The notes below the pieces were generated by a model. The model saw nothing but the letters and a program-made list of their open reading frames with translations, was not told where the DNA came from and did no database searches. From a virus (Duplodnaviria > Caudoviricetes), in IMG/VR virus record IMGVR_UViG_3300028591_000179, positions 1-64,000 of that record: a DNA stretch of 64,000 nucleotides, one strand, 5' to 3'. Within the stretch, counting starts at the first letter, position 1, and each line of letters opens with the position of its first letter. The position numbers were made by a program, and so were the translations under genes. Shown piece after piece: positions 27,031 through 41,152 of this stretch.

Positions 27031-27297
27031 ATGTCTAGATTCAGTAAAATTGTTAAAGCAAAATTAAAAGAAGAACTAACCATAAATCCATTAGTACAGG
27101 AATTAAATACAATGCATGAAAAAATTGATCAGATGCAAGAAACAATAATTGAAAAATATTCCAGTGCTAATTTTGATAGAGAAAATCATAGAGCTGAGTA
27201 TTATAATGAAGTAACTTCTGCATTATCAGATGCCAGATTAGCTATTTCTAGAGCAAGCGATTATTTAAATGCTTTAACTGAGGATGAAGTATTTTAA
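27031..27297 (+). CDS. Putative internal head protein (MSxF leader family), helical
   Basis: MSRFSKIVKAKLKE leader; own late promoter and terminator. Confidence 0.6.
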   Translation: MSRFSKIVKAKLKEELTINPLVQELNTMHEKIDQMQETIIEKYSSANFDRENHRAEYYNEVTSALSDARLAISRASDYLNALTEDEVF

Positions 27298-27327
27298 AAA
27301 GGGACCAATTAACTGGTCCCTCTATTT
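27296..27327. terminator. Bidirectional terminator
   Basis: AGGGACCA/TGGTCCCT stem with A and T flanks. Confidence 0.75.
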
Positions 27328-28462
27328 AAACTGTTAAATTTTTTATCTTTATATTTTCTAACAAATCTGCATATTTAAATCTATATGTGTCATCTATTTT
27401 TATTAGTGTAGAATAAACTTGAGTTGCATTTTTTAATTTTTCATATATTACATTTGCACTTGTTATACCTTTATCTCTATCTTTATATAATCTATTATAT
27501 CTTAAGGCTATTTCTTTTTTATTAAGTGTAACAGTTGATATCTCTAAATTTTGTTCTTCTGCAAAAGATTTAAACACACCATATAAATCAATCATAAAAT
27601 TAGAAACTTTATCTTTAGCTAAACTTAATTCTGTATTATATTGTATTTTTACTTTTTTATACAAAATATTTTTAATAGCCTGTAGATTTTTGCTTACATA
27701 AGAATAAAGTAATTTTTTACCAGTTGATAACATATTATATCTTTCCATTTCATTTAATCTTTCAAAAAGCACTAATACAAACCATCTAGCTATATTAGTA
27801 TTTATATTAAATTTTAATCTTTTAGATACTTCAGTTAACTTTGAAGTATTTTCAAGGTCTAGTTTAGTTAATTTTTCTTTTTCTTTGTCATACTCTGTTT
27901 TAGTTAAAATATTTTTATTTAATTGCTCATCTAAAACTTTATATTTTATTGTATAAAGAGTACGCAAAAATTTAATATTTAAAGCATTTTTATAATCTTC
28001 TGTTAAGCTACTATTCATACACTCATCTATACTATTAAACTTAGTATAATTTTTAGATGTTGGTTTAATATTATTTATTTTTAAATACTTATCTAAGCGT
28101 TCTTTTGCAATATTATAAAACTCATTAAATTGTTCTTGGTTTAAAACGTTAGAACAATAATAAAAAATTAAATTTTTTATATCTCTTGAATACCTAAAAT
28201 ATAAATGATATATACACAATAAGTAATCAATTTTTTTAGTTTTTTCAATAGTAAATTCAATTAGTTGTTCATTTTTTGGTTCTTCTGAATTTAAAACTGG
28301 TAATACCTCAAAACAAGTCTTTCTTACTTTTGTAAGCCTATTTACTTCATTTTGATTATAACTTTTTATAGTTTTAATATATGCATATAAATCAGAATAT
28401 GAATAATTTTCTGGTTTAAACGCTTTAGTAATACAATTTATTTTCATTTTAAATCCTTTCAT
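27326..28462 (-). CDS. Hypothetical protein
   Basis: 378-aa ORF, no motif recognised. Confidence 0.7.
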   Translation of the reverse strand: MKGFKMKINCITKAFKPENYSYSDLYAYIKTIKSYNQNEVNRLTKVRKTCFEVLPVLNSEEPKNEQLIEFTIEKTKKIDYLLCIYHLYFRYSRDIKNLIFYYCSNVLNQEQFNEFYNIAKERLDKYLKINNIKPTSKNYTKFNSIDECMNSSLTEDYKNALNIKFLRTLYTIKYKVLDEQLNKNILTKTEYDKEKEKLTKLDLENTSKLTEVSKRLKFNINTNIARWFVLVLFERLNEMERYNMLSTGKKLLYSYVSKNLQAIKNILYKKVKIQYNTELSLAKDKVSNFMIDLYGVFKSFAEEQNLEISTVTLNKKEIALRYNRLYKDRDKGITSANVIYEKLKNATQVYSTLIKIDDTYRFKYADLLENIKIKNLTV

Positions 28463-28518
28463 TATAGATTATGTATTACATATAACATATACTATTTATT
28501 ATGTAAAGCCAAAAAAAA

Positions 28519-29115
28519 TTAATAACCTTTAAGCTTAGCTAATCCATATAATTCATTTATATCATTTATTTTAAACCAATACTTATTTCTATCCTTTTTT
28601 ACAAAATCTAATTTATATGCTGTTTTTACAAAATTAATTACACTATTTATTACAAAAGAATCCATATTATACATAAGTAAACATATATAATTTTCTTTTA
28701 TTTTATCATAATTTTTAGTATAATATAAATCATCAATATGCAAACGTCCAAACATTAACGGCGAAAATTTATATCTCTTAAATAAACTATCTTCAACAAA
28801 ATCTTCTATAATATCTCGTAAACCCTCTTTAGTTATTTTACCTTTATTTATAAAATAATCATATAAATCACTTGGAATTAACCAATGAGCAGAATATTCT
28901 TTGAAATCTAAATATTCTAATTTTTTTACTAAAGGATTTTTTGTATTTTCTAATATACTTTTAGCATATCTACTATCATTTCCTTTTTTATTCCAAATAT
29001 ATAATAAAAATTCTTTATCTCCTATCTCCTCTATATCTAATTGATATTTATTAGATATTTTAAATTCTTCTCTTACTCCATTTAAATACTTAATAAAATC
29101 TAAACGACTTATCAT
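28519..29115 (-). CDS. Hypothetical protein (C-terminal motif family)
   Basis: Ends 'WFKINDINELYGLAKLKGY'. Confidence 0.65.
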   Translation of the reverse strand: MISRLDFIKYLNGVREEFKISNKYQLDIEEIGDKEFLLYIWNKKGNDSRYAKSILENTKNPLVKKLEYLDFKEYSAHWLIPSDLYDYFINKGKITKEGLRDIIEDFVEDSLFKRYKFSPLMFGRLHIDDLYYTKNYDKIKENYICLLMYNMDSFVINSVINFVKTAYKLDFVKKDRNKYWFKINDINELYGLAKLKGY

Positions 29116-29133
29116 ATGAATTCTTTCAATAAA

Positions 29134-29514
29134 TTATTTTAAAGAATATGTTTTGTTTTCTAGATATTCTTTATTAATATCAATTGCTTTCATTAAATAC
29201 TCTATAATTTTATCAAGATATGTCGAATTAAATCTTTTACTTTTTAAAAACCTTCTTAACTCATTAAAATTATTATTTAATTTATCAATACCAAATGTAG
29301 ATTCTCCAATATACATAACTATACTATCATTTGCACAATAAGTTATATTTGAATGACGAATTTTTTTATTAGTTGGTTTATCACCAATATTAATATCCCA
29401 TCTACCTGGATATACTTCTACTAATTCAATACCTTCTCTTTTATATACATTTTCATCATTAGTAATCACTATAGATTCTAATACTTTTGGTATAATTATT
29501 TTTTTATTAGACAT
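29134..29514 (-). CDS. Hypothetical protein
   Basis: AAGGA SD; own sigma70-like promoter. Confidence 0.65.
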   Translation of the reverse strand: MSNKKIIIPKVLESIVITNDENVYKREGIELVEVYPGRWDINIGDKPTNKKIRHSNITYCANDSIVMYIGESTFGIDKLNNNFNELRRFLKSKRFNSTYLDKIIEYLMKAIDINKEYLENKTYSLK

Positions 29515-29546
29515 TTTTAATTCCTTTCAAATTTATTTATATATTT

Positions 29547-29575
29547 AATATATACTATCTCAAGTAAAAAGTAAA
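29547..29575 (-). promoter_or_regulatory. Sigma70-like promoter
   Basis: TTTACT-N17-TATATT. Confidence 0.65.
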
Positions 29576-29619
29576 ACAATTATTTAGGGCTTTCAGTTTA
29601 TTAAACAAAATTTCTTAAA

Positions 29620-29626
29620 AGTTCTA
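29620..29626 (+). promoter_or_regulatory. Putative late promoter AGTTCTA
   Basis: Upstream of the 29709 ORF. Confidence 0.65.
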
Positions 29627-29708
29627 GTATGTATATTAATCTTTTATAAAAAAGAATATAAGAAAATAGTTAATAATTTATTGAATAATTTATTTAAAAG
29701 ATAAAAAA

Positions 29709-30368
29709 ATGACTTTACATATTGGTAATAATCTAGTAAAAATAAATCATAATAATACATATGCATCTTTAGTTAAAATACCATTTGTTCCTAGTATTCC
29801 AACTATGTTAGGTTCTCGTCTTGATAACAAAGCAACAGTTGTAGGTGTATTACAAGATCATGAAGGTAATGATTATGTATTAGCTGTAGTAGATGCTGCT
29901 TATAGAAGTGGCTCACCAATACTTAGATCCCCAAAAGGTGCTTCAAGTTTACCTTGGCATAGACTTGAAAAAGACGCTTTAGCGGATCGTCATACAGGAA
30001 AATATTATACTGATGTTATAATAGCTGAAACATCCATAAATCAAAATGATGCAATCTATTTTGCCACAAATGCATGTAGTATCTTTTTAAAAAATATGGA
30101 ATATAAATCTGTATTACCATCGTTATATGAATTAACATGTATATACGATAATAGAATTGAATTAGATAAACATGATCCGACATTAAATGATTATCCAGAA
30201 AGATCCTTAACAAATTTTACATTTGGTAGTACGGGGTCTAGATCATCTACGGCAAGACAAAGTACTGGTCAATATATGTGGATTAAGAATTCTGATGGAA
30301 CAAATAATATACTTGAGTATAGACAAAGTAGTGGTGTGTGTCCTGTGTTTTGTATTCCATTATCATAA
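29709..30368 (+). CDS. Putative receptor-binding protein, C-type-lectin-like domain
   Basis: 'LPSLYEL.CIY.NR..LD..DPT...S.ST......W....G....GVCPV'; MTLHIG N-terminus. Confidence 0.55.
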   Translation: MTLHIGNNLVKINHNNTYASLVKIPFVPSIPTMLGSRLDNKATVVGVLQDHEGNDYVLAVVDAAYRSGSPILRSPKGASSLPWHRLEKDALADRHTGKYYTDVIIAETSINQNDAIYFATNACSIFLKNMEYKSVLPSLYELTCIYDNRIELDKHDPTLNDYPERSLTNFTFGSTGSRSSTARQSTGQYMWIKNSDGTNNILEYRQSSGVCPVFCIPLS

Positions 30369-30416
30369 AATTTAATTAGATAATTTTTATATATTTATTA
30401 AAACCTTGAAAGCCTT

Positions 30417-31136
30417 TTAATATTTATTTATACGTAACATTGCATTAGTTAAATTAATATCTTTTATTTTATAAATACTTAAGTTTGAAAGTAAATTTGT
30501 ATCTGTATATACTGTGTTATAAAAATCAATATTTAAATATTTTAATTTATTCTTTAATTCTCTTTTAAAACCTTTTAATTCATCTGAATTAAATGCAATA
30601 TGAGTTGAATTTAAAGCGCCAAATATTCTTATTACACCCTTCATTCTTCCTTTAAAATAGTATATTAAATAACTAACGATTTTAAAACTTAATTCAAATT
30701 GTTCAAATGCTTCATCTATATCTTGATCGGTAGATTTTTTAAGTATTTTATTTATATAACTTGGTTTTAAACATAAAAATCTATTATCATCTATTGTTTC
30801 TATTTTAAATCCTGATATATCACATTTATATTCTTTTAACCAAAATAAAATTTCTTTTGGTTTAGTAATCATTTTTAAATTTACTTTATTATTTTCATTT
30901 ATAGATTTATTACATAATGCACAAACTAGTCTATTATTAGATTCATTATTTTTATCATAGAATAATTGTAAGCAAGTAAGGTCATCAAAACCAAAATATT
31001 TATTTATTATATATATTAAAATAATTAGAGCCTTAAAACTCCAAGTTATCTTATTTTCATTTTTATTTTTATTTGATTTTAAACAAGTGTGTAAATTACA
31101 CCATGTATATTCATAACTATTATTCCAGTCTGACAT
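30417..31136 (-). CDS. Hypothetical protein, paralogue of 36824-37519
   Basis: Shared 'ILFWL.EY..D.SGF.I...FL.LKP.YIN.IL' and 'I.DIN.TNAMLRI'. Confidence 0.75.
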   Translation of the reverse strand: MSDWNNSYEYTWCNLHTCLKSNKNKNENKITWSFKALIILIYIINKYFGFDDLTCLQLFYDKNNESNNRLVCALCNKSINENNKVNLKMITKPKEILFWLKEYKCDISGFKIETIDDNRFLCLKPSYINKILKKSTDQDIDEAFEQFELSFKIVSYLIYYFKGRMKGVIRIFGALNSTHIAFNSDELKGFKRELKNKLKYLNIDFYNTVYTDTNLLSNLSIYKIKDINLTNAMLRINKY

Positions 31137-31150
31137 TATATCATTCCCTA

Positions 31151-31792
31151 CTATTCATATACATATAATGGACAAATACTATCAAAAGCATGTTTTTCAA
31201 TTAATTTATTATTTCCCATTAATCTAAAAAATCCAGAATATACATCTGTCAAGTTATTTAAATTTAATGTTAAGCGTATACATACCCACTTTTTAGAAAA
31301 ATATTTATATGGTAAATCTACTTTATCATATTCTTGATTTATATCTGGTTTTTTATCATATCTATGCGAATAATCTATTATACATTTTACATTTATTAAA
31401 TTATTCAAACCATAATCATTAATCATTTGTTTTAAATCTTTATATGCTTTCTTTACTTCTTTTATTTGATCTGATACCAAACCATCTAAGCTTGGAAAAA
31501 TTAAATTATCACTAACACATAAATTATTTTTCTTATCATAAATTACACAATATGGTTCAAGACTAGGTCCTTTTTCCATTCCTGACCAAGTATTATATTC
31601 TTTATGAAAAGGAAAATTTGCATTAAGTAATCCATATAAATAAATCAAAATATTAAAAATTATATTTTCATTTTTAGATACTAAAGAATTTTCCTCAAAA
31701 GTATAATTATAAGAATCTTCAGATAAAAAAACTTCTCTAATATGTTTATTATTATGTATTTTATATCCACAATTTTCAGTTTTGTTAAACAT
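31151..31792 (-). CDS. Hypothetical protein
   Basis: AAGGA SD; own promoter. Confidence 0.65.
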   Translation of the reverse strand: MFNKTENCGYKIHNNKHIREVFLSEDSYNYTFEENSLVSKNENIIFNILIYLYGLLNANFPFHKEYNTWSGMEKGPSLEPYCVIYDKKNNLCVSDNLIFPSLDGLVSDQIKEVKKAYKDLKQMINDYGLNNLINVKCIIDYSHRYDKKPDINQEYDKVDLPYKYFSKKWVCIRLTLNLNNLTDVYSGFFRLMGNNKLIEKHAFDSICPLYVYE

Positions 31793-31822
31793 TTATATAT
31801 TCCTTTCATTAACTATAAATTT

Positions 31823-31851
31823 AATATAGCATTGAAATAAAACAAAGTAAA
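31823..31851 (-). promoter_or_regulatory. Sigma70-like promoter
   Basis: TTTACT-N17-TATATT. Confidence 0.65.
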
Positions 31852-31861
31852 ACCATTTAAA

Positions 31862-31868
31862 AGTTCTA
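31862..31868 (+). promoter_or_regulatory. Putative late promoter AGTTCTA
   Basis: 34 nt before the 31903 ORF. Confidence 0.65.
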
Positions 31869-31902
31869 ATAGTTATATAAATTTTATTTAAGGATAGATA
31901 CT

Positions 31903-32187
31903 ATGTCAAATAAATATAAAGAAGATTTTATAAAGAAGGTAAATAAATTATTAAGTGAAGGTGAAGATTATTCTTGGATGGATGATGACGATGAATTACC
32001 TCAAACAGAATATACTCCAAAACAAGAAGAAGCTATTGATATGTTTGATGAATATTTACAAAAATTAAATGAAGGTCTTATTTCAAGAAAAAATTTTGCT
32101 CAAATTGCTAGTGAATTATACAATAATTTACCAGAATATGATTATCTTAGAAGTAAAGATGCAAAATTACCACAAAAGTATAATTAA
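31903..32187 (+). CDS. Acidic late protein, possible leader variant (…KLLSE)
   Basis: AAGGA SD; late promoter. Confidence 0.65.
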   Translation: MSNKYKEDFIKKVNKLLSEGEDYSWMDDDDELPQTEYTPKQEEAIDMFDEYLQKLNEGLISRKNFAQIASELYNNLPEYDYLRSKDAKLPQKYN

Positions 32188-32211
32188 AAAATAATATTTG
32201 GAATATTAAAA

Positions 32212-33321
32212 ATGGGTTTATTTGTTGGTCAAACTGAAGTAAGAATTAATCGTAATGATTCATATGGATCTTTAATAAAACCACAAAAAGTAATTGAAAT
32301 TGAAAATTGGGTAAATTCTAAATTAGAAAGTAATGGCATTTTAGGTAATGATACAGAAGCATTATGGATTTCTGAGCATGACTATTTTGAAAATTATAAC
32401 TTTTATGAATTAATGGATGAAAATCTTCAATATAATGTTTTTTATTTAGATACCTTAGAAACAAATAAAGATATACCAATTATTTTTTATACACCAAAAC
32501 AAGTCCAACTAAATGAATTTGTTATTGCTGGAAATTCATTAGATGATAATAATTTAATTTTTGAAATATATGGAAGTAATGAACCTTTTGTAGCAGATTA
32601 CGAACAAGATTTATCTATTGATTATTTTGCTTCTAATGATTCTTTATGGACAGAAATTAGTTTTAATAAGATTGTTACAAATGAAAATGTTAAATTTACT
32701 TTTAATAATGAAAATTTTTATCATTATTATAAAATAGTAATTCGATTAAATGCATCAGTAGAAACTACATTTTCAGAATTTAGAATGACTGGTAATAATA
32801 TAAAAATGCCTCCTACCCCTATGGAAATTTATTTAAGTAATCATGAAGTAAAAGAAATTAAAAATACTTCTGATACAGCTACTTCATCAACAGAAGTAGT
32901 AGTATTTAATGCTTCTACCGGTGGAAAGGGTAATTTTAGTGGAGTATGTAGTAATTTAGTAAATTTAGAAACACTTATAATTAAAAAAGTTAGTGGTTCT
33001 GGTTGGAATCATTATCAAAATGCTTTTAATAATGATACAAAATTAAAAAATGTTATATTTAATGGCAGTATGACTATGAGTGGGTCTGGACATTTAACTG
33101 GAATATTTAATGGATCAAATAATATAGAAAAAATTTATATAAATAAAAACTATAATCCTCCAGCAAATGTTATGAATCAAATCTCTTCTAAAAATTGTAT
33201 AGTATATACCGATTATACAAGTGAATCTGATAATTATATAAATACCTATTTTTCTGTAAATAAAATAGTTTATAATTATTCTATAGATGATTTCTTTACA
33301 TTATTAAATAATGAATTTTGA
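32212..33321 (+). CDS. Putative adhesin: anchor, discoidin-like domain and LRR-like C-terminus
   Basis: N-terminus matches 29709; 'FYHYYKIVI...FSEFRM'; 'AF.N...LK.V.F' repeats. Confidence 0.55.
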   Translation: MGLFVGQTEVRINRNDSYGSLIKPQKVIEIENWVNSKLESNGILGNDTEALWISEHDYFENYNFYELMDENLQYNVFYLDTLETNKDIPIIFYTPKQVQLNEFVIAGNSLDDNNLIFEIYGSNEPFVADYEQDLSIDYFASNDSLWTEISFNKIVTNENVKFTFNNENFYHYYKIVIRLNASVETTFSEFRMTGNNIKMPPTPMEIYLSNHEVKEIKNTSDTATSSTEVVVFNASTGGKGNFSGVCSNLVNLETLIIKKVSGSGWNHYQNAFNNDTKLKNVIFNGSMTMSGSGHLTGIFNGSNNIEKIYINKNYNPPANVMNQISSKNCIVYTDYTSESDNYINTYFSVNKIVYNYSIDDFFTLLNNEF

Positions 33322-33728
33322 TTTCTTTCTTTAACTTTATCATAATTTTTATCAAAATATTTATAATCATCATTTTGCAAATCTCTATATTTGTAATTTT
33401 GATTTTTATCAAAATGATCACGATAAAAACCTTTAATCCTATTATGATCTGGATTAGTTCTTAAATCTTCTATATAAGCTTGACTATCTTTTATTTTATT
33501 TAATAAATTTATAATTTTTTTATTTTCAGGATATTCATTTTTTATTGTTACAATTAAATAATAAGCCTTTCCTAAAAAACCTAAAGCTTTACTTAAATTT
33601 TCTTGTTCATTTTGGAGTTCTTCATTATCAATATCGTAATTTAAAGCTTGCATTCTACTAGGATTACCATCATCTTCTTCTAATTTTTCACAAGCCTCTC
33701 TAAAAGCCTTTATATATTTATTAACCAT
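33276..33728 (-). CDS. Hypothetical late protein, possible leader variant
   Basis: Minus-strand AGTTCTA 37 nt upstream; AAGGA SD. Confidence 0.65.
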   Translation of the reverse strand: MVNKYIKAFREACEKLEEDDGNPSRMQALNYDIDNEELQNEQENLSKALGFLGKAYYLIVTIKNEYPENKKIINLLNKIKDSQAYIEDLRTNPDHNRIKGFYRDHFDKNQNYKYRDLQNDDYKYFDKNYDKVKERNQNSLFNNVKKSSIE

Positions 33729-33765
33729 TTAATGATTCCTTTTAAATTATTATTAATATGTTTAT

Positions 33766-33772
33766 TAGAACT
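33766..33772 (-). promoter_or_regulatory. Putative late promoter AGTTCTA
   Basis: TAGAACT on the plus strand. Confidence 0.6.
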
Positions 33773-33901
33773 ATAAAAACTTTTAATTACCTGTTATATT
33801 TAGTATTCATATTTATATTCCCATTAACAATTCTAACTCTTTTACAAAAGAATACATTTATATACTTAATTCTACAAATAAAAATTACTAAAAATATTTA
33901 A

Positions 33902-33908
33902 AGTTCTT
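33902..33908 (+). promoter_or_regulatory. Late promoter variant AGTTCTT
   Basis: 35 nt before 33944. Confidence 0.55.
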
Positions 33909-33943
33909 ATGTATAATAATAAATATATCAATGAAAATAAAAA

Positions 33944-34786
33944 ATGTCAAAGTTTAAAAACATAATAGAAAATATATTAAAAGAGCATAGCATCAATTTA
34001 AATGAGGATGCTAAAAAAGATTATGCTTTAATAAAAGAAGCAAAGGTTGTTTACAATATGTTTTTAAAAGATTTACAAAAAAAGATGAAATATGTCTTAG
34101 AAGAATTAAAATCACAAGAAGATAGTGATTCTTGTGAAGTAAATGATTTAATTATTAAACTAAATATTTATGATTATAACTCTACATGTGGTAGTTATGA
34201 TCCTTTTATGAATAGTATTCAATTATCATTAAATTCACTTAAGAAAAAAACTAAATTAAAAAATGTAGAAATAAATCCTGATACTGTTAATGAATCTATA
34301 ATATATACTATTTTAAATTCTAATTTCACTAAAGAAGTTTTTTTACACGAATATCAACATTATAAACATAACCAATACAGATATTCAAATCGAGATTATG
34401 AATCGATTAAATTTCCAAATAGTGATACTTATTATACTTATAGGCATGATGCTAATGAAAACAATTCTTATACAATGGAAGATTTAAATAATATAATTAA
34501 ACAATTTAAAAAAGAAATAAACAACAATTTATCTAAAAACAATATAAAGGATAAACTTAATTATTTTATATCCAATTTATATAATCAATATATTCATACT
34601 GATATAAATCCAAAAAAAGTACCATATGATTCAAAGTCATCAAATTTAAGTCAATTCTTCTTTACATATAATAAAAAAAGATATATTAATCGAATTTATA
34701 ATTTACTTTATTATTTATTTATAGAAGATAATATAACCAGAGCAAGAAAAATATATAATGAAATAAAAAAAGATATATTAGAGTAA
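33944..34786 (+). CDS. Putative zincin metallopeptidase with MSxF leader (internal head protein)
   Basis: FLHEYQH (HExxH) plus downstream NE; paralogue of 37712. Confidence 0.7.
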   Translation: MSKFKNIIENILKEHSINLNEDAKKDYALIKEAKVVYNMFLKDLQKKMKYVLEELKSQEDSDSCEVNDLIIKLNIYDYNSTCGSYDPFMNSIQLSLNSLKKKTKLKNVEINPDTVNESIIYTILNSNFTKEVFLHEYQHYKHNQYRYSNRDYESIKFPNSDTYYTYRHDANENNSYTMEDLNNIIKQFKKEINNNLSKNNIKDKLNYFISNLYNQYIHTDINPKKVPYDSKSSNLSQFFFTYNKKRYINRIYNLLYYLFIEDNITRARKIYNEIKKDILE

Positions 34787-34793
34787 TAGATAA

Positions 34794-36179
34794 ATGTCAA
34801 GGTTTAGAAACATAGTAGAATCAATTATATATAATAGTAATATTTTATTTGAATCTGAGCAAAAAATAAATTGGATTTTGTCTCAACCTAAACTTGTCCA
34901 AGCTTTAGAAAATAGAATTCAAAATGATTCTAAAACTCCAAATAATATAACAGCTAAACAATTATTAAAAAATTTTGATAATAGTTCAATTGTAATTGGA
35001 AAATTTTTGCCTTGGGTTGTAAAAATGTATTCTAATAATGAATTTGAATATACTGATTTAGGGTTAATAAATAACTATCTCGGAAGCTTTGTAAAAAATT
35101 CAAACAAATTAGAAAAAAAAGATATAAATCAATATAAATCTTTAGAAGAATTAAATAATGCTTTAGAAAATATAAAAGATGTTAAAGGATCTCGCGAAGT
35201 ACAAAGAGATGCTAAATCTGGTGCAGAAAAAATTTATGAAGACAATAAATGGATTATACTTATCCCGCACACTAAAGAAGCCGCAATACAATATGGTAAA
35301 AATACTAAATGGTGTACTGCAGGAATAAATAATAATATGTTTGACTATTATAATGAAGATGGACCTTTATATATTCTTATAAATAAGCAAAATCCTAATG
35401 AAAAATATCAGTTTCATTTTGAAACAAATCAATATAAAGATGTAGAAGATCGAGAAATAGATTTAAAATCTTTTTTAGAAGAAAATCCAGAAATAAAAAT
35501 TTTTTTTGCATCTATTAAAAATCTTGATAAGACTGATATTAAAAATTGGATATGGCTTAATGGGACTAAATTAAATTATAATGATTACTTTGAAGAAGTT
35601 AAAAAACATGGTTTTGTATTAAAATATGTACCAGAAGAAGTAAAAGATTATAAAATGTGTTTAGAAGCTATTAAACAAGCTGGATATCGTTTAGAATTTG
35701 TACCAGAAAAATTAAAAGATTATAATATGTGTTTAATTGCAGTTAAAAGTAAGGCTACTGCATTAAAATATGTACCAGAAGAATTTAAAGATTATAAGTT
35801 ATGTTTAGAAGCTGTTAAATCTGGAGGTTATATGTTAATAGATGTTCCAGAAGAATTTAAAGATTATAAGTTATGTTTGACAGCTGTTAAATCTGATGGT
35901 TGTGCCATAGTAGATGTACCGGAGGAATTAAAAGATTATAATATGTATTTAGAAGCTGTTAAATCTGATGGCTATACATTAGAATGTATACCTGAAGAAT
36001 TTAAAGATTATCAAATGTGTTTAGAAGCTGTTAAAAGTAAAGGTGAAGCATTAAAATATGTTCCAGAAGAATTAAAAGATTATAGAATGTGTTTAACAGC
36101 AATTAAAAAAAATAATAGTGCATTAAATTATACATCAAAACAATTTAAAGAAAAACTTAAACAAAAAATCGGAATATAA
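34794..36179 (+). CDS. MSxF-leader protein: PcfJ-like domain plus DUF4116-like 24-aa repeats
   Basis: 'W.IL.P.T.EAA..YG..TKWCTA...F.YY...GPLY...KYQFHF'; '[YV]VPEE.KDY..CL.A[VI]K' x7. Confidence 0.7.
   Translation: MSRFRNIVESIIYNSNILFESEQKINWILSQPKLVQALENRIQNDSKTPNNITAKQLLKNFDNSSIVIGKFLPWVVKMYSNNEFEYTDLGLINNYLGSFVKNSNKLEKKDINQYKSLEELNNALENIKDVKGSREVQRDAKSGAEKIYEDNKWIILIPHTKEAAIQYGKNTKWCTAGINNNMFDYYNEDGPLYILINKQNPNEKYQFHFETNQYKDVEDREIDLKSFLEENPEIKIFFASIKNLDKTDIKNWIWLNGTKLNYNDYFEEVKKHGFVLKYVPEEVKDYKMCLEAIKQAGYRLEFVPEKLKDYNMCLIAVKSKATALKYVPEEFKDYKLCLEAVKSGGYMLIDVPEEFKDYKLCLTAVKSDGCAIVDVPEELKDYNMYLEAVKSDGYTLECIPEEFKDYQMCLEAVKSKGEALKYVPEELKDYRMCLTAIKKNNSALNYTSKQFKEKLKQKIGI
35619..36122 (+). repeat. 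Seven 72-nt (24-aa) tandem coding repeats
   Basis: Recurrent 'ccagaagaatt.aaagattata.' units. Confidence 0.85.
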
Positions 36180-36181
36180 TA

Positions 36182-36817
36182 ATGTCTCAATTTAAAACTA
36201 TTATAGAAAATATTTTAAAACAACATAATATTACTTTAACCGAAGCTAAAGTAATTAAAATATCTTTTGATGAATTGGGTAATGATTCTGGTTATAGTTA
36301 TGAAGATATAATAACTTATAATATGCCACCATATTTACCGATATATAAAAATCCAACGCAATCTGAATTTTTTGATATTTATAATCATTCTATAGAAAAA
36401 GATATACGTGGATTAATTGTTAATGATGATATTTATATATGGGATAGTTATTGGGCATTACATAATAATATATGGCAATTATTAAATATTGATCCAAATA
36501 TAAATACTTGTGCTTTTTTGTATCATGATAATAAGTTAGAATTTGGTGATATATTAAATAAAGATGGTATGTATATAAAAGATATAAACTTAGCTAAATC
36601 CATAATGCTTAATAATAAATGGTTTGTAGATACTTTTGGTAAAAATTTAATTAATAATGCCTTACCACATCATACTTGGGAATTTGAAGAAGATACTATT
36701 AAACAAGGTAATTCTTGGGTAAATAAAGGAAAAGAAGGTACTCATGGTACCTTCAAAACTAAAAAACAAGCTGATACTCAAAGAAAGGCTATGTTTGCAA
36801 ATGGATATAAAGGCTAA
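36182..36817 (+). CDS. MSxF-leader hypothetical protein
   Basis: MSQFKTIIENILKQHNITLTE; C-terminal 'KQG.SW...G..GTHG.F.TKKQA..Q.KA' module. Confidence 0.7.
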   Translation: MSQFKTIIENILKQHNITLTEAKVIKISFDELGNDSGYSYEDIITYNMPPYLPIYKNPTQSEFFDIYNHSIEKDIRGLIVNDDIYIWDSYWALHNNIWQLLNIDPNINTCAFLYHDNKLEFGDILNKDGMYIKDINLAKSIMLNNKWFVDTFGKNLINNALPHHTWEFEEDTIKQGNSWVNKGKEGTHGTFKTKKQADTQRKAMFANGYKG

Positions 36818-36823
36818 ATCATA

Positions 36824-37519
36824 TTAATTACCTGTTATACGTAACATTGCATTTGTTGTATTTATATCAGTTATTTTAAAAATATAAATATCTTGACTAT
36901 TAAGTCTTTCATCATAACCTTTAGAATAAAAATCAATATTAATATATTTAAATTTATTTTTTATCATTCTAATATCATCTGCTGAATTATATACAATATA
37001 AATATTATTTGAATTACTATAAATTTGAAACGTAGAAAGAACTTTTTTATAAGTCATAAGTATATAATTCATAAGTTTAGAAACTAATTCAAAATATTTA
37101 AAAGCATTTTCTATATCTGTATTAGTAACTTTATGTAATATTTCATTAATATATTTTGGTTTTAAATATAAAAAATCTTCACCATCTAATTGTTTAATTT
37201 CAAAACCAGATGTATCAATTTCATATTCGGTTAACCAAAATAAAATAGTTTGTGGATTAGTAATAACATTTATTTTAAGATTACCATACTCATCTTCATA
37301 TTCATCATAAAATTTACAAATAAAATCACAACAATTATTATCATATAGTAAAACTAAATTAGAATCTTTTAAATATATATTTATTAGAGATGTTAAAAAA
37401 TAAATAATTCTAATACTATCTCTTATATCATTATAATTATTATTAGATTTTATATAACTAGATTTAGAACGACAGCTATATGTAAATTTATATTTATAAT
37501 CATTATTCCATTTAGTCAT
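36824..37519 (-). CDS. Hypothetical protein, paralogue of 30417-31136
   Basis: End-to-end similarity by eye. Confidence 0.75.
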   Translation of the reverse strand: MTKWNNDYKYKFTYSCRSKSSYIKSNNNYNDIRDSIRIIYFLTSLINIYLKDSNLVLLYDNNCCDFICKFYDEYEDEYGNLKINVITNPQTILFWLTEYEIDTSGFEIKQLDGEDFLYLKPKYINEILHKVTNTDIENAFKYFELVSKLMNYILMTYKKVLSTFQIYSNSNNIYIVYNSADDIRMIKNKFKYINIDFYSKGYDERLNSQDIYIFKITDINTTNAMLRITGN

Positions 37520-37544
37520 TTTAAATTCCTTTCTATTAATATAT

Positions 37545-37574
37545 ATAATAGCATATAAAAAGAAATAAAGTAAA
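37545..37574 (-). promoter_or_regulatory. Sigma70-like promoter with extended -10
   Basis: TTTACT-N18-TATTAT with TG before the -10. Confidence 0.55.
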
Positions 37575-37648
37575 GCTGTTTATTCATCTTTTCATTCTTG
37601 TAATAGAAATACTAAATAATAAAAGTCTACTAAATAAAATTCCTTAAA

Positions 37649-37655
37649 AGTTCTA
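37649..37655 (+). promoter_or_regulatory. Putative late promoter AGTTCTA
   Basis: Upstream of 37712. Confidence 0.65.
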
Positions 37656-37711
37656 ATGTATATGTATATTTTATCTTAAAAAACATAGTTAACATAATTC
37701 AAAAATAAAAA

Positions 37712-38563
37712 ATGTCAAAGTTTAGAAATATAGTAAAAAACATATTACAAGAAAATAATATTGTTATTAATGAAGATGCTAAAAACGATTATGCCTTAAT
37801 AAAAGAAGCAGAAGTAGTTTATAATATGTTTTTAAATAAGATAAAACAAGATAGTGAATATGTAATTAATTGGTTAAATAAATATGGAGATGTAGTAATA
37901 TTACCTCCTAATAATAATAATGAGTGTCCTTCTCTCAAAATATGTAGTTATAAAGGTCCTTCTGGCGAATTAGCTTTTTGTGATGAACTTGGTATAACTT
38001 TATATTTAGAAGGCTTATTATATAATAGTTGGTATAAAAAATATTTCTTAAATCATAATGTAACAATAGATATTTTATTAAAAGCTCTTAAATTACCTCA
38101 AATTAAATCTTCTTTTTTACACGAATATCAACATTTTAAATATCATACAACAGATAAAACTAAAGATTTACCATATAAAGTAAATTGGAAAAAAGATTAC
38201 AATAAATATAGACTAAATCATAATGAAAATAATTCTTTTACTATGGAAGATTTAAATCATTTAATAACAGATTTTAAATTTGAATTAAAACATAAAAATA
38301 TTGATCTAAATAATAAAAAAGAAGTATTAAACTATTTATCTCAATATATACAAAATTTATATGCTCTTATTGGAATGAAATCAGCATACGATGGACATAG
38401 AATAACAAATTTATCAGAACAACCTATGTATACAAAAGATACACATATGGAAAAACAATACTATAAACGTATATACAATATATTATATTATTTATTTGTA
38501 GAAGATAACATAAATAAAGCAAGACAAATATATAATCAAATAAAAAAAGATATGCAAGGGTAA
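37712..38563 (+). CDS. Putative zincin metallopeptidase with MSxF leader, paralogue of 33944
   Basis: FLHEYQH, 'NENNSFTMEDLN', 'RIYN.LYYLF.EDNI..AR.IYN.IKKD'. Confidence 0.7.
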   Translation: MSKFRNIVKNILQENNIVINEDAKNDYALIKEAEVVYNMFLNKIKQDSEYVINWLNKYGDVVILPPNNNNECPSLKICSYKGPSGELAFCDELGITLYLEGLLYNSWYKKYFLNHNVTIDILLKALKLPQIKSSFLHEYQHFKYHTTDKTKDLPYKVNWKKDYNKYRLNHNENNSFTMEDLNHLITDFKFELKHKNIDLNNKKEVLNYLSQYIQNLYALIGMKSAYDGHRITNLSEQPMYTKDTHMEKQYYKRIYNILYYLFVEDNINKARQIYNQIKKDMQG

Positions 38564-38572
38564 TAATAACTA

Positions 38573-39244
38573 ATGAGTATATTTAGAAGTATAGTAGAAA
38601 ATATATTACAAGAAATGACTTACCCAAGTAATTTTGATTTACAATATTTTTCAACTATTCCTACATTTAAAGATCGTATTAAATATTGTAAAGACAGATT
38701 AAAACTTATTGGAAACGGTACATCACGTATAGCATTCCAAGTTGATGACAAAAAAGTACTTAAAATTGCAAAAAACTCAAAAGGGATTGCACAAAATATA
38801 AAAGAAGAAGATTGGGGTAGAAATCAATATGGTTGCTTTGCTAAAATATATGAAGCTGATACAAATAATCATACATGGATAGAAATGGAATTAGCAAGTA
38901 AAGTAACTTTTAAAAACTTTATTGAACATTTTGGATTATCTGCAAAATCTTTATTACCTGTATTTGAATATGTATATAATACCTACACTGATATAAATAA
39001 AAATAATAAACTTCCAGAAAAAGAACAAATAGAAGAATTTTTAAAAAACAATATATATAATAAGAAAAATAAAGAATTATATAATCTTTACCAATATATA
39101 TTAGATTACCAACCAGATAAATTAACTATAAAAGATTGGTGTCGATCAGATAATTGGGGTAAAGTAAATAGAAATGGTAAAGAATACTATGTTATTATAG
39201 ATGATGGATTTGATGAAGATATATGGAATAAATATTATGCTTAA
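38573..39244 (+). CDS. Protein kinase-like enzyme with MSxF leader
   Basis: Gly loop IGNGTSRIAF, beta3 VLKIAK, alphaC 'QNIKE', catalytic 'DWCRSDNWG', 'IIDDG'. Confidence 0.7.
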   Translation: MSIFRSIVENILQEMTYPSNFDLQYFSTIPTFKDRIKYCKDRLKLIGNGTSRIAFQVDDKKVLKIAKNSKGIAQNIKEEDWGRNQYGCFAKIYEADTNNHTWIEMELASKVTFKNFIEHFGLSAKSLLPVFEYVYNTYTDINKNNKLPEKEQIEEFLKNNIYNKKNKELYNLYQYILDYQPDKLTIKDWCRSDNWGKVNRNGKEYYVIIDDGFDEDIWNKYYA

Positions 39245-39311
39245 AAATTTCAATAAATAAAATCATAATATATAAAAAATAAAAAAATATCATACATTAC
39301 AATCACTAATA

Positions 39312-39318
39312 TGTTCTA
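39312..39318 (+). promoter_or_regulatory. Late promoter variant TGTTCTA for MCP
   Basis: Only copy of the motif in the 295-nt intergenic region. Confidence 0.55.
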
Positions 39319-39538
39319 TATATACATAATATTAAAGTTAAATCTCAATTATATATATTAAAAAACATATAATTAAAATGCTACGAGATTTAAACTACTA
39401 CTCTGGATTATAAGTCAACATAAGTTATATAAGATTAATTAAATTTATTCATCACTGCTTATACCTTCTTATACAAAATAACAAAATCATATATTAAACT
39501 TAAATTTTCAAAAAACAAACAAAAGGATATAATATAAA

Positions 39539-41152
39539 ATGTCTATTATGAGAAGAATTGAAAATAACGGTCTAGTAGAAAAAACTCGTAGCGAAAAAAT
39601 TGCAAACGGTATTTCTCATGCTGCTAACGTATTACACGAGTCTACTTTAGGTCGTCGTTGCCCTAACTTATTAAAGGGTATTGAATCAGAAAGCAAAGAA
39701 GCACGTTATCAAGCTGCTACTATGGTTCAACTTATCGAAAACATGGCTGAAAAATATGCTAAAGAACAAGGCGTACAAATCTTACACGAAGATACAGCTG
39801 GTACTGCAGGTCCTGCTACTACTGCTGCTACGGCTATGTTGACTCCTGGCGTATCAACTTTAACTCCGCAAGTAGTTGATATTGTTAATGTTTTCTATCC
39901 GCAAATGGTTTCTAATTACATTGCAGATATTCAAGCATTAGATCGTCAGTCTGGTATGATTTTCACCATTAAGACACGTTACAGTCAAGATGCTGCTGAT
40001 GTTGAAGCTGGTGACATTGTATTTGAAAAGCCTACTGATGGTACATATACTTCTGAAATGTTGGCATATAATCCTGATAAAACAACGATTGAAGAAGATG
40101 CTGATAAGAAAGTATACAAAGTACATGCTGAATTGAATAGTGCTTTACCTGAAGATGCAACAGTAAAAGTACGTGCTGGTTCGTTTATTGTTCGTGTTGA
40201 TGGTAAAGAAATTGCACGTGACTATGGTAATGGTTCTGCTAATTTGGATGGTACACAGAAGAAAGCAGAAGATGTATATGGTAAGTACAATGTAATTGGT
40301 CGTGGTGTATCTGGTACAGTTGATGCTGGTTCTGGTGTTGCTGAATTAGAATTAGATGCTAGTATGTATGCTGAAGCTGTTGAATTTGGTACATTTACGT
40401 TTGAAGCTGCTGTTGATACTGAGACTGATGTTGATTTGATTCGTAAGATTCAGTTCGATATTCCTGCTCAACCAGTATTAGCAAAAGAACACCCGTTAAT
40501 GAGTTCTTACAGTGTTGCATCTTCTTTGATTATGAATGCACACTTAGCAATTGATACTGATGAATTAATTGCTAACCAAATTGCTGGTACGATTCGTTGG
40601 GAACGTGACTTGTTATTGATTCAATCTGTTTATGCTGCTGCTGCTTCTAAGCTTGATTTAACATTTGATTGTTCTGCAAATGGTGCTAACTTAACATTAC
40701 AACAAAGATATAGTGCATATACAACAACGATTAGTACAGCTCGTGGTATTATTCAAGAGGTTGCTGGTCGTGGTACTGTTGAATTTATGATTGTAAGTGC
40801 TAAGCAAGGTTTAACAATCGTTGAAAATATTGAAGGCTTTAAGGCTGCTCCTGAAGCTAAGAAACCGATTGGTCCGTATTTAGCTGGTACATTACGTGAA
40901 GGTACAATTGCTGTTATTGCTGTTCCGTATACTAAGACATTACCGAGTGATCAAGTTGTATTTGGTTTCAAAGGATTCCAACTTGGTGATTCTGCTATTG
41001 TTTTGGCTGAATGGATTCCGTTGTACTTCACACCTACTTTCCAAGCTCCGAACTTAAAGAATCATAAAGGTGCTATGTCTTTCTATGATTTGTTCATGAA
41101 TAAGCCGGAATACTTGGTTAAAGGTGCTATTGCTAACTTTAACAATGCCTAA
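39539..41152 (+). CDS. Major capsid protein, T4 gp23-like
   Basis: 'A.QAATMVQLIEN', 'QALDRQSG.IF...RY', late 'G.Y..G...G.I.V...PY', 'G..LAEWIPL...T.....L...G....Y'; highly expressed codon usage; strong terminator. Confidence 0.88.
   Translation: MSIMRRIENNGLVEKTRSEKIANGISHAANVLHESTLGRRCPNLLKGIESESKEARYQAATMVQLIENMAEKYAKEQGVQILHEDTAGTAGPATTAATAMLTPGVSTLTPQVVDIVNVFYPQMVSNYIADIQALDRQSGMIFTIKTRYSQDAADVEAGDIVFEKPTDGTYTSEMLAYNPDKTTIEEDADKKVYKVHAELNSALPEDATVKVRAGSFIVRVDGKEIARDYGNGSANLDGTQKKAEDVYGKYNVIGRGVSGTVDAGSGVAELELDASMYAEAVEFGTFTFEAAVDTETDVDLIRKIQFDIPAQPVLAKEHPLMSSYSVASSLIMNAHLAIDTDELIANQIAGTIRWERDLLLIQSVYAAAASKLDLTFDCSANGANLTLQQRYSAYTTTISTARGIIQEVAGRGTVEFMIVSAKQGLTIVENIEGFKAAPEAKKPIGPYLAGTLREGTIAVIAVPYTKTLPSDQVVFGFKGFQLGDSAIVLAEWIPLYFTPTFQAPNLKNHKGAMSFYDLFMNKPEYLVKGAIANFNNA

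What the first reader, a model, noticed from the sequence alone, without database searches (positions are those of the whole stretch)
27031..41152. Candidate capsid-packaged effector arsenal: one N-terminal targeting leader on unrelated cargos
Seen: six late ORFs begin with nearly the same peptide. They are 27031 MSRFSKIVKAKLKE, 33944 MSKFKNIIENILKEHSINLNE, 34794 MSRFRNIVESIIYNSNILFE, 36182 MSQFKTIIENILKQHNITLTE, 37712 MSKFRNIVKNILQENNIVINE and 38573 MSIFRSIVENILQE. Looser variants are 31903 (..KLLSE) and 33276 (..KLEE). Similarity stops at a hydrophobic-x-Glu site, after which the cargos differ (kinase-like, two HExxH peptidases, PcfJ-like/repeat, unknown domains). All lie in AGTTCTA-led units. 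The MCP has matching VLHE|S and ILHE|D sites. Established: T4 internal proteins and Alt enter the prohead via a short N-terminal targeting sequence, are cut after Glu by gp21, and are injected with the DNA. Inference: this is a modular 'zip-code + payload' system for delivering enzymes into the host at infection.
Basis: partly seen in the sequence, partly recalled or inferred. Interest (0 to 1): 0.85.

Follow-up and report, generated by a model that had tools for sequence, protein, structure and literature searches.

The report
Shared capsid-targeting leader on phage proteins
Six otherwise unrelated proteins encoded next to the T4-like capsid gene of an uncultured giant phage carry the same 14-21-residue N-terminal tag ending in a glutamate. 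It is most likely a T4-style address label that loads enzymes into the phage head, a known mechanism found here in a new lineage.

Summary
A profile of the first 14 residues hits exactly six ORFs in the 74.8-kb contig, always at the N-terminus (25-29 bits; next best 10.5). After the leader only 33944 and 37712 are paralogues, so there are five cargo families.

Orthologue comparison fixes the module boundary. The kinase-like cargo (38573) and the HExxH cargo (33944/37712) always begin right after a Glu. The leader in front varies by lineage: short type 1, long type 1, or a second NKY...KL-x-E type also present at 33728(-). Some relatives are polyproteins joined at the same Glu sites.

The MCP is gp23-family, with two conserved L-x-E propeptide sites. 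Two near-complete relatives (237 and 227 kb) encode a gp21-like head-maturation protease and a T4-type portal. One of them has eight leader ORFs.

An AGTTCTA promoter-like motif precedes leader operons, tail genes and the protease gene.

The best reading is a T4-type capsid targeting sequence cut by the prohead protease. Packaging, cleavage and injection are inferred, not shown. The contig itself lacks the protease, being about 31% of a genome. Conserved CTSs on diverse internal proteins are established for T-even phages, so this is a new variant of a known kind. The same pattern recurs with lineage-specific leaders in other large-phage contigs.

The parts
26995..27001 (+). AGTTCTA promoter-like motif, 36 nt upstream of leader ORF 27031
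27031..27297 (+). Type-1 leader protein, 88 aa. The leader is 27031-27072 (14 aa, ends K-L-K-E). The cargo is a small acidic helical protein (74 aa, pI 4.4).
   Evidence: Leader HMM 25.7 bits; no family assignment; pI.
31903..32187 (+). Possible weak relative of the type-2 leader (94 aa), preceded by AGTTCTA at 31862. Membership is uncertain.
   Evidence: Visual similarity only; below 8 bits with the type-2 HMM; promoter motif.
33276..33728 (-). Type-2 leader protein (150 aa). The leader is about 33675-33728 (N-K-Y-I-x-x-F-R-E...K-L-E-E), preceded by AGTTCTA at 33766-33772 (-).
   Evidence: Type-2 HMM 34.2 bits. The same leader occurs on three G002 ORFs near its MCP, and on P0050 and P0053, which are orthologues of the HExxH cargo.
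33902..33908 (+). AGTTCTT variant of the promoter-like motif, 43 nt upstream of 33944. It heads the operon 33944-34794-36182.
33944..34786 (+). Long type-1 leader (21 aa, to 34006) plus HExxH cargo (280 aa); paralogue of 37712.
   Evidence: Leader HMM 26.4 bits; 40% identity to 37712. HE-x-x-H and a downstream Glu are invariant in 21 family members. The cargo start right after Glu is conserved in orthologues.
34794..36179 (+). Type-1 leader (20 aa, ends I-L-F-E, to 34853), then an N-terminal domain of unknown family, then DUF4116 repeats (461 aa).
   Evidence: Leader HMM 25.3 bits; PF13475 DUF4116 7.3e-43; no PcfJ match.
36182..36817 (+). Long type-1 leader (21 aa, ends T-L-T-E, to 36244), then an unknown domain, then a C-terminal 43-aa DUF2188-like module (211 aa).
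   Evidence: Leader HMM 26.8 bits. The body is fused behind an HExxH domain in P0053, joined at the same L-T-E site. The C-terminal module is 93% identical to G002 49594-49722. DUF2188 is a structural lead only.
37649..37655 (+). AGTTCTA promoter-like motif, 64 nt upstream of 37712. It heads the operon 37712-38573.
37712..38563 (+). Long type-1 leader (21 aa, to 37774) plus HExxH cargo (283 aa).
   Evidence: Leader HMM 28.8 bits. Orthologues carry a short type-1, long type-1 or type-2 leader on the same cargo start. The AF2 model has pLDDT 74 and pTM 0.48 with no clear PDB fold. Per-member Pfam hits to zincin families are weak.
38573..39244 (+). Short type-1 leader (14 aa, to 38614) plus a protein-kinase-like cargo (223 aa).
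   Evidence: Leader HMM 26.9 bits. In the AF2 model (pLDDT 90) the leader forms a separate helix at residues 3-14. Foldseek finds APH(2'') and ULK1/TBK1 kinases at E 3e-5 to 1e-3, TM 0.37-0.42. Gly-loop, Lys, Glu and Asp positions are invariant in 30 homologues.
39539..41152 (+). Major capsid protein, T4 gp23 family (537 aa). It has an N-terminal propeptide with L-H-E sites ending at nt 39640 (residue 34) and nt 39790 (residue 84).
   Evidence: PF07068 1.4e-21, with homology starting at residue 105; phrog_138; sites conserved in 5 relatives. A TGTTCTA variant of the promoter motif lies upstream in G000 and G001.

Best explanation
The shared N-terminus is a capsid targeting sequence of the T4 kind. 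It is a short amphipathic helix with hydrophobic residues at positions 4, 7, 8, 11 and 12. The proposed steps are as follows. The helix docks newly made proteins onto the scaffolding core of the assembling prohead. A gp21-family head-maturation protease then cuts it off after the Glu of a (L/I/M)-x-E site, at residue 14 or 20-21. The mature cargos stay inside the head with the DNA. These cargos are a kinase-like enzyme, two HExxH proteins, a DUF4116-repeat protein and two unknowns. They probably enter the host at infection. Shown here: the leader is a discrete, protein-level conserved module. It has an exact boundary after Glu and is exchangeable between leader types and between cargos. It sits in promoter units shared with structural genes, in a lineage with a gp23 MCP, a T4 portal and a gp21-like protease. 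Inferred: binding to the core, cleavage, retention in the virion and injection.
For: (1) The leader is specific and non-random, and it is conserved as protein rather than DNA.

(2) There are five unrelated cargo families in this contig. The 14 type-1 leader proteins of this phage and relative G001 fall into 10 cargo families, of which only 2 are shared. This resembles the variable internal-protein sets of T-even phages.

(3) The boundary is precise. 45 homologues of the kinase-like cargo begin their conserved body right after a Glu, whatever leader precedes it. The HExxH family does the same.

(4) The modules are interchangeable. The same HExxH cargo carries a short type-1, long type-1 or type-2 leader. 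G002 uses only type 2, on three ORFs near its MCP.

(5) Polyproteins exist: HExxH plus the 36182 body, two HExxH domains, and one protein with an internal leader copy. All are joined at x-x-E sites. Kinase-domain fusions behind other domains occur as well.

(6) The MCP has two conserved L-x-E propeptide sites of the same form.

(7) G001 and G002 encode a ~994-aa protein whose N-terminus matches head maturation protease (phrog_207 1.1e-11; PF03420 7.9e-5). The next gene has one of the highest L-x-E densities in each genome. Both genomes also have a T4-type portal.

(8) AGTTCTA precedes the leader operons, a tail-tube gene and the tail-fibre operon here. In G001 it precedes the protease gene, the tail-tube operon, the four-gene leader operon and the operon holding leader ORF 116138.

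(9) AF2 models the leader as a separate helix followed by a low-confidence linker. Its hydrophobic moment is 0.49-0.64, against about 0.3 when shuffled.

(10) The pattern replicates. In 9 other large-phage loci the kinase homologue shares a lineage-specific leader with a neighbour whose body is unrelated.

(11) There is precedent. The T4 CTS is about 10 residues, with targeting residues at positions 4 and 7 and cleavage after Glu10. It packages foreign proteins, and T-even internal proteins are diverse behind a conserved CTS (PMC9026906; PMC3012670; PMC8442874).
Against: No protease, scaffold or portal gene lies on this contig. CheckV rates it 31% complete, so the machinery is inferred from relatives with 68-76% identical MCPs. 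The Peptidase_S77 match in G002 is below Pfam's cut-off.

There are no virion proteomics for any close relative. The nearest cultured MCPs are 37% identical.

The cargos are not depleted in (L/I/M)-x-E. 38573 and 33944 are among the richest in the contig, so the minimal motif cannot define cleavage on its own.

About a quarter of all ORFs have such a motif at residues 12-22 by chance.

Mature cargos are near-neutral to mildly basic and larger than the small basic T4 internal proteins.

The XacN1 kinase homologue ORF170 lies among replication genes. The main text of that phage's gel-band proteome paper does not mention it; its supplements were not searched.

In G001 most leader genes sit 30-40 kb from the MCP, beside genes with no clear structural role.
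Confidence: 0.65

Rival explanations
1. The leader is a docking helix for some other phage or host structure, not for the capsid interior. Candidates are a tail or baseplate part, a chaperone, a membrane site or a phage compartment. The Glu boundary would then be only a domain linker, or a site for another protease.
For: Only sequence modularity is shown, not location. Some leader genes in G001, and the XacN1 homologue, are not in clearly structural neighbourhoods. In the same contig a different shared N-terminus marks fibre-like proteins, so N-terminal docking modules are used for other assemblies too.
Against: The invariant Glu at the module boundary, including inside polyproteins, fits the after-Glu specificity of gp21-family proteases (PMC9026906). 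The same site form occurs in the MCP propeptide. The genes share a promoter motif with the head protease gene and lie next to the MCP in G000, G001 and G002.
Confidence: 0.17
2. The leader marks prohead core or scaffold components that are degraded and expelled during maturation, like T4 gp67, gp68 and gp22. They would not be payloads that are kept and injected.
For: Cargos are rich in (L/I/M)-x-E sites. G001 ORF 116138 lies about 4.5 kb downstream of the portal gene in a structural operon. The small acidic helical protein 27031 looks more like a core component than an enzyme.
Against: At least one cargo is a well-folded kinase-like domain with conserved catalytic-type residues. The HExxH family keeps an invariant metal-site motif. 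Enzymes are unlikely to be mere scaffold. The cargo repertoire differs sharply between close relatives, unlike essential core proteins.
Confidence: 0.1
3. The shared 5' ends are a by-product of recent duplication or cassette recombination, or a translation or mRNA signal. The peptide itself would have no function.
For: The region contains paralogue pairs (33944/37712 and 30417/36824) and a 93% identical module shared with G002. This shows active shuffling.
Against: Nine of 14 columns keep the residue while changing the codon. The leader persists across relatives with 50-70% identical cargos. Two unrelated leader sequences occupy the same position on the same cargo. Helical amphipathicity is preserved.
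Confidence: 0.05

Closest known systems
[quoted passage not shown]
   Same: A short N-terminal peptide shared by otherwise unrelated proteins of one phage, ending in a hydrophobic-x-Glu site. Hydrophobic residues sit at positions 4, 7 and 8, as in the T4 CTS. The MCP is gp23-family with a propeptide. A gp21-like protease is present in relatives. The payload set varies between relatives.
   Different: The leader is 14-21 residues against about 10 and has no detectable sequence homology to the T4 CTS. Two unrelated leader types are interchangeable on one cargo family. Some cargos are joined into polyproteins at the same sites. Cargos are mostly 190-440 aa, enzyme-like and not strongly basic. The protease domain is fused into a ~994-aa protein. 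The genome is an AT-rich, ~230-kb uncultured lineage whose MCP is at most 37% identical to any cultured phage. Nothing is experimentally shown.
Propeptides of inner-body and ejection proteins in phiKZ-like giant phages (phiKZ gp175, SPN3US gp245, 201phi2-1)
   Same: Jumbo phages with many head proteins cut after Glu by a diverged gp21 homologue. The propeptides are proposed to target proteins into the prohead. The identical N-termini of SPN3US gp53 and gp54 have been noted as CTS-like (PMC5694885).
   Different: Those propeptides are mostly over 100 residues and are not a common short tag on many unrelated proteins. This phage has a T4-type MCP and portal rather than the phiKZ type, and a short leader reused on many cargos.
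Phage P1 Dar system (DarA, Hdf, DarB and others packaged into the head)
   Same: Anti-defence enzymes are loaded into the capsid during head morphogenesis and delivered with the DNA (listed).
   Different: From general knowledge, P1 packaging depends on an ordered protein-protein hierarchy rather than a common cleavable N-terminal tag. This comparison was not tested here.

Membership tests
T4-type capsid targeting sequence system | A short N-terminal peptide shared by otherwise unrelated proteins of the same phage | tested here: met
   Six ORFs score 25-29 bits against a next best of 10.5. They form five cargo families. G000 and G001 together hold 10 families.
T4-type capsid targeting sequence system | The leader ends at the prohead-protease consensus (L/I-x-Glu) and the mature protein starts right after it | tested here: met
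   Met at sequence level only. Every leader has such a site at residue 14 or 20-21. The conserved cargo start follows a Glu in 45 kinase-family and 21 HExxH-family homologues with different leaders. Cleavage itself was not observed.
T4-type capsid targeting sequence system | A gp23-family major capsid protein with a cleavable N-terminal propeptide | tested here: met
   PF07068 at 1.4e-21, with homology starting at residue 105. Two L-x-E sites at residues 34 and 84 are conserved in relatives. Cleavage is inferred.
T4-type capsid targeting sequence system | A gp21-family (Peptidase_S77) prohead protease encoded by the phage | tested here: inconclusive
   None found on this contig, which is 31% of a genome. 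Relatives G001 and G002 have a ~994-aa protein whose N-terminus matches phrog_207 head maturation protease at 1.1e-11, and PF03420 at 7.9e-5, below the cut-off.
T4-type capsid targeting sequence system | A scaffolding core (gp22-like) to which the leader binds | tested here: inconclusive
   There are only candidates. The gene after the protease in G001 and G002 has one of the highest L-x-E densities in each genome but no PHROG match.
T4-type capsid targeting sequence system | Proteins are physically packaged, processed and injected | not testable with these tools
   The phage is uncultured and has no proteome. The main text of the XacN1 proteome paper does not mention the kinase homologue ORF170.
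T4 internal proteins and Alt (sequence homology of the cargos) | The cargo is homologous to IPI, IPII, IPIII or Alt | tested here: not met
   No Pfam or PHROG match of any cargo to such families.
Protein kinase-like fold (38573) | A bilobal kinase-like fold with a Gly-rich loop, a beta-3 Lys, a helix-C Glu and catalytic and metal-binding Asp residues | tested here: met
   AF2 pLDDT 90. Foldseek against PDB finds APH(2'') at 3e-5, plus ULK1 and TBK1, probability about 1 but TM only 0.37-0.42. G49, R52, K64, N68, E78 and G196 are invariant in all 30 homologues; D188 and D210 are conserved in at least 90%. Activity and substrate are unknown.
Zincin metallopeptidase (33944, 37712) | An HExxH motif with a third ligand, on a zincin fold | tested here: inconclusive
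   H137, E138, H141 and E172 are invariant in 21 members. Single members hit SprT-like (3e-4), M90, M35 and DUF6782 below threshold. The model has pTM 0.48 and no significant PDB match. The Atlas gives TM 0.36-0.42 to Peptidase_Mx1, a lead only.
DUF4116 repeat proteins (34794) | A match to PF13475 above its cut-off | tested here: met
   E 7.3e-43, 144 bits, four stretches.
PcfJ-like (34794 N-terminal domain) | A match to PF14284 | tested here: not met
   No match at E up to 0.1 in hmmscan, or up to 10 in the whole contig.

The most novel reading that the evidence does not exclude
Cleavable N-terminal 'zip codes' may be a general feature of many uncultured large phages, not only of T-even phages. 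Each lineage would have its own leader, and sometimes two interchangeable ones, co-evolving with its scaffold and protease. Payload genes would be freely shuffled, fused into polyproteins and exchanged behind the leader. The leader would then be a sequence-only marker that reads out the packaged and injected proteome from metagenomes. That proteome would include a widespread kinase-like enzyme, seen here in over 300 metagenome loci.
Probability: 0.4. Interest if true: 0.72.

Novelty: new variant of a known kind. Interest (0 to 1): 0.58.

Why it matters
If the leaders are true capsid-targeting tags, the proteins a giant uncultured phage delivers into its host could be listed from sequence alone. 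Here that list includes a kinase-like enzyme and a putative metalloprotease, both candidates for host take-over or anti-defence functions. The leaders also define a natural, exchangeable packaging tag with a precise cut site. Such a tag could be tested as a protein-loading handle in phages other than T4. Leader swaps and Glu-joined polyproteins give comparative evidence on how such payload sets evolve. The principle itself is established for T4, so this is an extension of known biology, not a new mechanism.

Tried and rejected
- **Peptidase_S77 and T4 portal on the contig:** neither was found on the window's contig. This is uninformative because the contig is a fragment.
- **Degenerate DNA pattern for the type-1 leader:** a scan of IMG/VR returned only relative G001.
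- **Word-index protein search with residues 1-40 of 36182:** it found one near-identical protein only. It could not be used to list leader-bearing proteins.
- **Fold assignment of the HExxH protein:** Foldseek against PDB gave nothing below E 0.9. VIA-align wide gave Z of 5.5 or less on the helical C-terminal half only. No fold is claimed.
- **PcfJ label for 34794:** rejected.
- **Depletion of cleavage motifs in cargos:** not seen; the cargos are rather enriched.
- **MCP N-terminus as a leader copy:** it looks loosely similar (M-S-I-[ML]-x-x-I-E), but the leader HMM gives it no N-terminal match. It is not claimed.
- **G001 155662-156468(-):** it clustered with the leaders by its first six residues only and is not an HMM hit. 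It was excluded.
- **XacN1 virion proteome paper:** searched for ORF170 and ORF171 in the main text, with no mention. The supplements were not searched.

Full report
**Setting.** The window is the first 64 kb of a 74,772-bp IMG/VR viral contig (26.5% G+C, no terminal repeat). CheckV rates it 31% complete. ORF 39539-41152 is a T4 gp23-family major capsid protein: PF07068 at 1.4e-21, phrog_138 at 4.3e-22. The closest cultured MCPs are only 37% identical (Xanthomonas phage phiXF1, Pseudomonas phage QdP_Psa3). IMG/VR holds eight relatives with 68-78% identical MCPs. Two are near-complete: G001 (237 kb, 98%) and G002 (227 kb, 95%). I fetched both in full. Elsewhere the window carries a tail tube gene, a tail-fibre operon, an NAD-dependent DNA ligase and an RNA ligase. 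This is a fragment of an uncultured, AT-rich phage of about 230 kb with T4-like head genes.

- The six ORFs are as described.
- A profile of their first 14 residues was run against every six-frame segment of at least 30 aa of the contig. It scores the six at 25.3-28.8 bits, always at the N-terminus. The next best segment scores 10.5 bits.
- Blind clustering of all ORF N-termini returns the same six as the largest cluster.
- In 9 of the 14 columns the same residue is written with different codons, including Ser as TCN and as AGT. Selection therefore acts on the peptide.
- The consensus is M-S-[KR]-F-[RK]-x-I-[VI]-E-N-I-L-x-E, with hydrophobic residues at positions 4, 7, 8, 11 and 12. The helical hydrophobic moment is 0.49-0.64, against about 0.3 for shuffles.
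- AlphaFold models the leader as a separate helix (residues 3-14 and 2-14) followed by a low-confidence linker.
- Beyond residue 14 only 33944 and 37712 are paralogues (40% identity). The rest are unrelated.
- Four leaders continue to residue 20-21 with a second hydrophobic-x-Glu site. In 34794 and 36182 that second site is the only one.

**Where the module ends.** This is the most informative result.
- The kinase-like cargo of 38573 has 45 homologues. In nearly all of those within about 35% identity, the conserved body starts with the same four residues right after a Glu. The peptide in front varies with lineage: short type 1, long type 1 plus a few residues, several unrelated leaders, or only six residues.
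- A metagenome scan found 316 loci with this family, in contigs up to 371 kb. Among the 74 loci examined, nearly all place a Glu directly before the conserved body. In some the body sits behind other domains within one ORF.
- The HExxH cargo of 33944 and 37712 behaves the same way. Nearly all homologues start the body with D-A-x-x-D after a Glu.
- The leader in front is short type 1 (P0048), long type 1, variants of these, or a second, unrelated leader N-K-Y-I-x-K-F-R-E-x-I-A-K-L-D-E (P0050, P0053).
- That type-2 leader is also on the minus-strand ORF 33276-33728 of this window, and on three ORFs close to the MCP of G002. G002 has no type-1 leader at all.
- So two different leaders are interchangeable on one cargo, and the joint is always after a Glu.

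**Shuffling and polyproteins.**
- P0053 joins an HExxH domain to a 36182-like body at the same L-T-E site that ends the 36182 leader.
- P0050 joins an HExxH domain to the 43-residue C-terminal module of 36182.
- P0057 has two HExxH domains joined at L-K-E.
- P0071 keeps a complete type-1 leader inside the protein, right before the HExxH body.
- The 43-residue module is 93% identical between this phage and G002, whose MCPs are 71% identical.
- G001 has eight type-1 leader ORFs. Four are in tandem at 11-13.8 kb and two at 21-22.5 kb. One is in the portal-to-tail-tube module at 116 kb. One lies 2 kb upstream of the MCP.
- The 14 type-1 proteins of the two phages fall into 10 cargo families, of which only 2 are shared.

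**Maturation machinery.**
- The contig itself has no match to Peptidase_S77 or to the T4 portal.
- G002 and G001 encode a ~994-aa protein, 49% identical between them.
- Its first ~250 residues match phrog_207 'head maturation protease' at 1.1e-11, and PF03420 at 7.9e-5, which is below the cut-off.
- The next gene in both genomes ranks among the highest for L-x-E density (third in G001, fifth in G002). It is a scaffold candidate without a family match.
- Both genomes have a T4-type portal above the Pfam cut-off.
- The MCP has L-H-E sites after residues 34 and 84. Both are conserved in five relatives, and a variable linker follows the second. Homology to gp23 starts at residue 105.
- gp21-family proteases of T4, phiKZ and SPN3US all cut after Glu following a short motif (PMC9026906).

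**Regulation.**
- AGTTCTA is not over-represented by count.
- However, 14 of its 15 copies in the contig are intergenic and lie 13-323 nt upstream of a co-oriented ORF.
- It precedes 27031, 37712, the type-2 ORF at 33728(-), 31903, the tail tube gene 1151 (phrog_45, 7.5e-17) and the tail-fibre operon at 3945. 33944 has the variant AGTTCTT.
- In G001 it precedes the protease gene, the tail-tube operon, the operon that holds leader ORF 116138, and the four-gene leader operon.
- The MCP has the variant TGTTCTA upstream in both phages.
- The leader genes thus belong to the same promoter class as structural and head-maturation genes. That this class is 'late' is inference.

**The cargos.**
- 38573 is a protein-kinase-like domain. 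The model has pLDDT 90. Foldseek finds APH(2'') phosphotransferases and ULK1/TBK1 at E 3e-5 to 1e-3, with TM only 0.37-0.42. Gly-loop, Lys, Glu and Asp positions are conserved.
- 33944 and 37712 keep an invariant HE-x-x-H and a Glu 31 residues downstream of the motif's second His, in 21 members. Single members hit four zincin families below threshold. No fold could be assigned. They are possible metalloenzymes, not shown peptidases.
- 34794 has DUF4116 repeats (7.3e-43). No PcfJ match was found.
- 36182 is of unknown function with a DUF2188-like tail, which is a lead only.
- 27031 is a small acidic helical protein.

**Generality.**
- In 39 non-redundant metagenome loci of at least 10 kb, I compared the first 15 residues of the kinase homologue with all neighbouring ORF N-termini.
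- In 7 loci the best within-locus match beat the best match in every one of the 38 other loci (about 1 expected). In 11 loci p was 0.1 or less (about 4 expected).
- In nine such pairs the two proteins share a lineage-specific leader of 13-19 residues and nothing else.
- In the cultured jumbo phage XacN1, the kinase homologue ORF170 and its neighbour ORF171 also share an N-terminal motif ending in Glu-Ala. The main text of that phage's gel-band proteome paper mentions neither.

**Interpretation.** The anatomy matches the T4 capsid targeting sequence. That sequence is about 10 residues and is shared by the internal proteins. Its targeting determinants are at residues 4 and 7, and it is cut after Glu10 by gp21. 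It can package foreign proteins, and T-even phages carry diverse internal proteins behind a conserved CTS (PMC3012670; PMC9026906; PMC8442874; PMC5694885). I therefore read the leaders as CTS-type tags, with confidence about 0.65.

The steps not shown are binding to the core, cleavage, retention and injection.

Points against:
- The machinery is missing from this fragment.
- No proteomic data exist for this phage or a close relative.
- The cargos are not depleted in the minimal motif.
- About a quarter of all ORFs have such a motif at residues 12-22 by chance.
- The cargos are unlike the small basic T4 internal proteins.

Rivals:
- A docking helix for another assembly (0.17).
- Core proteins that are degraded rather than delivered (0.10).
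- A by-product of recombination or a nucleic-acid signal (0.05). Codon variation and the leader swaps argue against this one.

**Novelty and score.** The principle is known, and this case is not a sequence homologue of the T4 CTS or of its cargos. What is new:
- The lineage.
- The longer leader with an optional second site.
- Two interchangeable leader types.
- Glu-joined polyproteins.
- The kinase-like and HExxH payloads.
- The sign that lineage-specific leaders of this kind are widespread in large uncultured phages.

I rate it a new variant of a known kind, with interest 0.58.

Noticed in passing
window 829, 3908, 26071, 26995, 29620, 31862, 33766(-), 37649, 41894, 42739(-); contig 66037, 67760(-), 69428(-), 71216(-): AGTTCTA, often as A-A-G-T-T-C-T-A followed by a TAT-rich stretch, behaves as a promoter-like element. 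14 of its 15 copies are intergenic and upstream of co-oriented ORFs, including tail tube, tail-fibre and fibre-like genes. It is conserved in relative G001 before the protease gene and structural operons. The MCP has a TGTTCTA variant in both phages.
   Followed up: partly
window 30417-31136(-) and 36824-37519(-): A pair of paralogous minus-strand ORFs (239 and 231 aa) of unknown function sits among the leader genes. They have a shared N-terminus and no PHROG match.
   Followed up: no
window 29709-30368(+), 32212-33321(+), 4434-5735, 5761-6894, 7569-8738: A different shared N-terminal module (M-x-[IL]-x-[IV]-G...) occurs on fibre- or LRR-like late proteins with different bodies. This is a second example of N-terminal module reuse in this phage, probably a virion attachment domain.
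   Followed up: no
window 36686-36817 versus L024:9594-9722 (G002 49594-49722): A 43-aa C-terminal DUF2188-like module is 93% identical between two phages whose MCPs are 71% identical. It also occurs behind an HExxH domain in P0050, which points to recent exchange of small modules.
   Followed up: partly
G002 179010-181994 (L009, L031); G001 about 148869-151832 (-): The head-maturation protease domain is the N-terminal quarter of a ~994-aa protein. The function of the remaining ~740 residues is unknown; it may be scaffold-like.
   Followed up: partly
L122 (Xanthomonas phage XacN1) 5582-5986 and 5986-6633: ORF171 and ORF170 (the kinase homologue) of a cultured 385-kb phage share an N-terminal motif ending in Glu-Ala. 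This could give a culturable system for testing the leader idea.
   Followed up: partly
L071 and L093 (metagenome loci), kinase ORFs of 372 aa: In other large-phage contigs an HExxH-containing domain and the kinase-like domain are fused in one ORF, joined after a Glu. L102 has a GNAT-like segment between the leader and the kinase.
   Followed up: no
G002 25242-25655(-), 96518-96796(+), 223721-224089(+): Three dispersed small ORFs share another N-terminus (M-F-x-[FK]-L-K-K-L-F...). Its meaning is unknown.
   Followed up: no
window 26360-26911(-): A 183-aa protein is made of repeated Cys-x2-Cys / Cys-x-Cys units (zinc-ribbon-like repeats). It lies directly upstream of, and divergent from, leader ORF 27031.
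   Followed up: no
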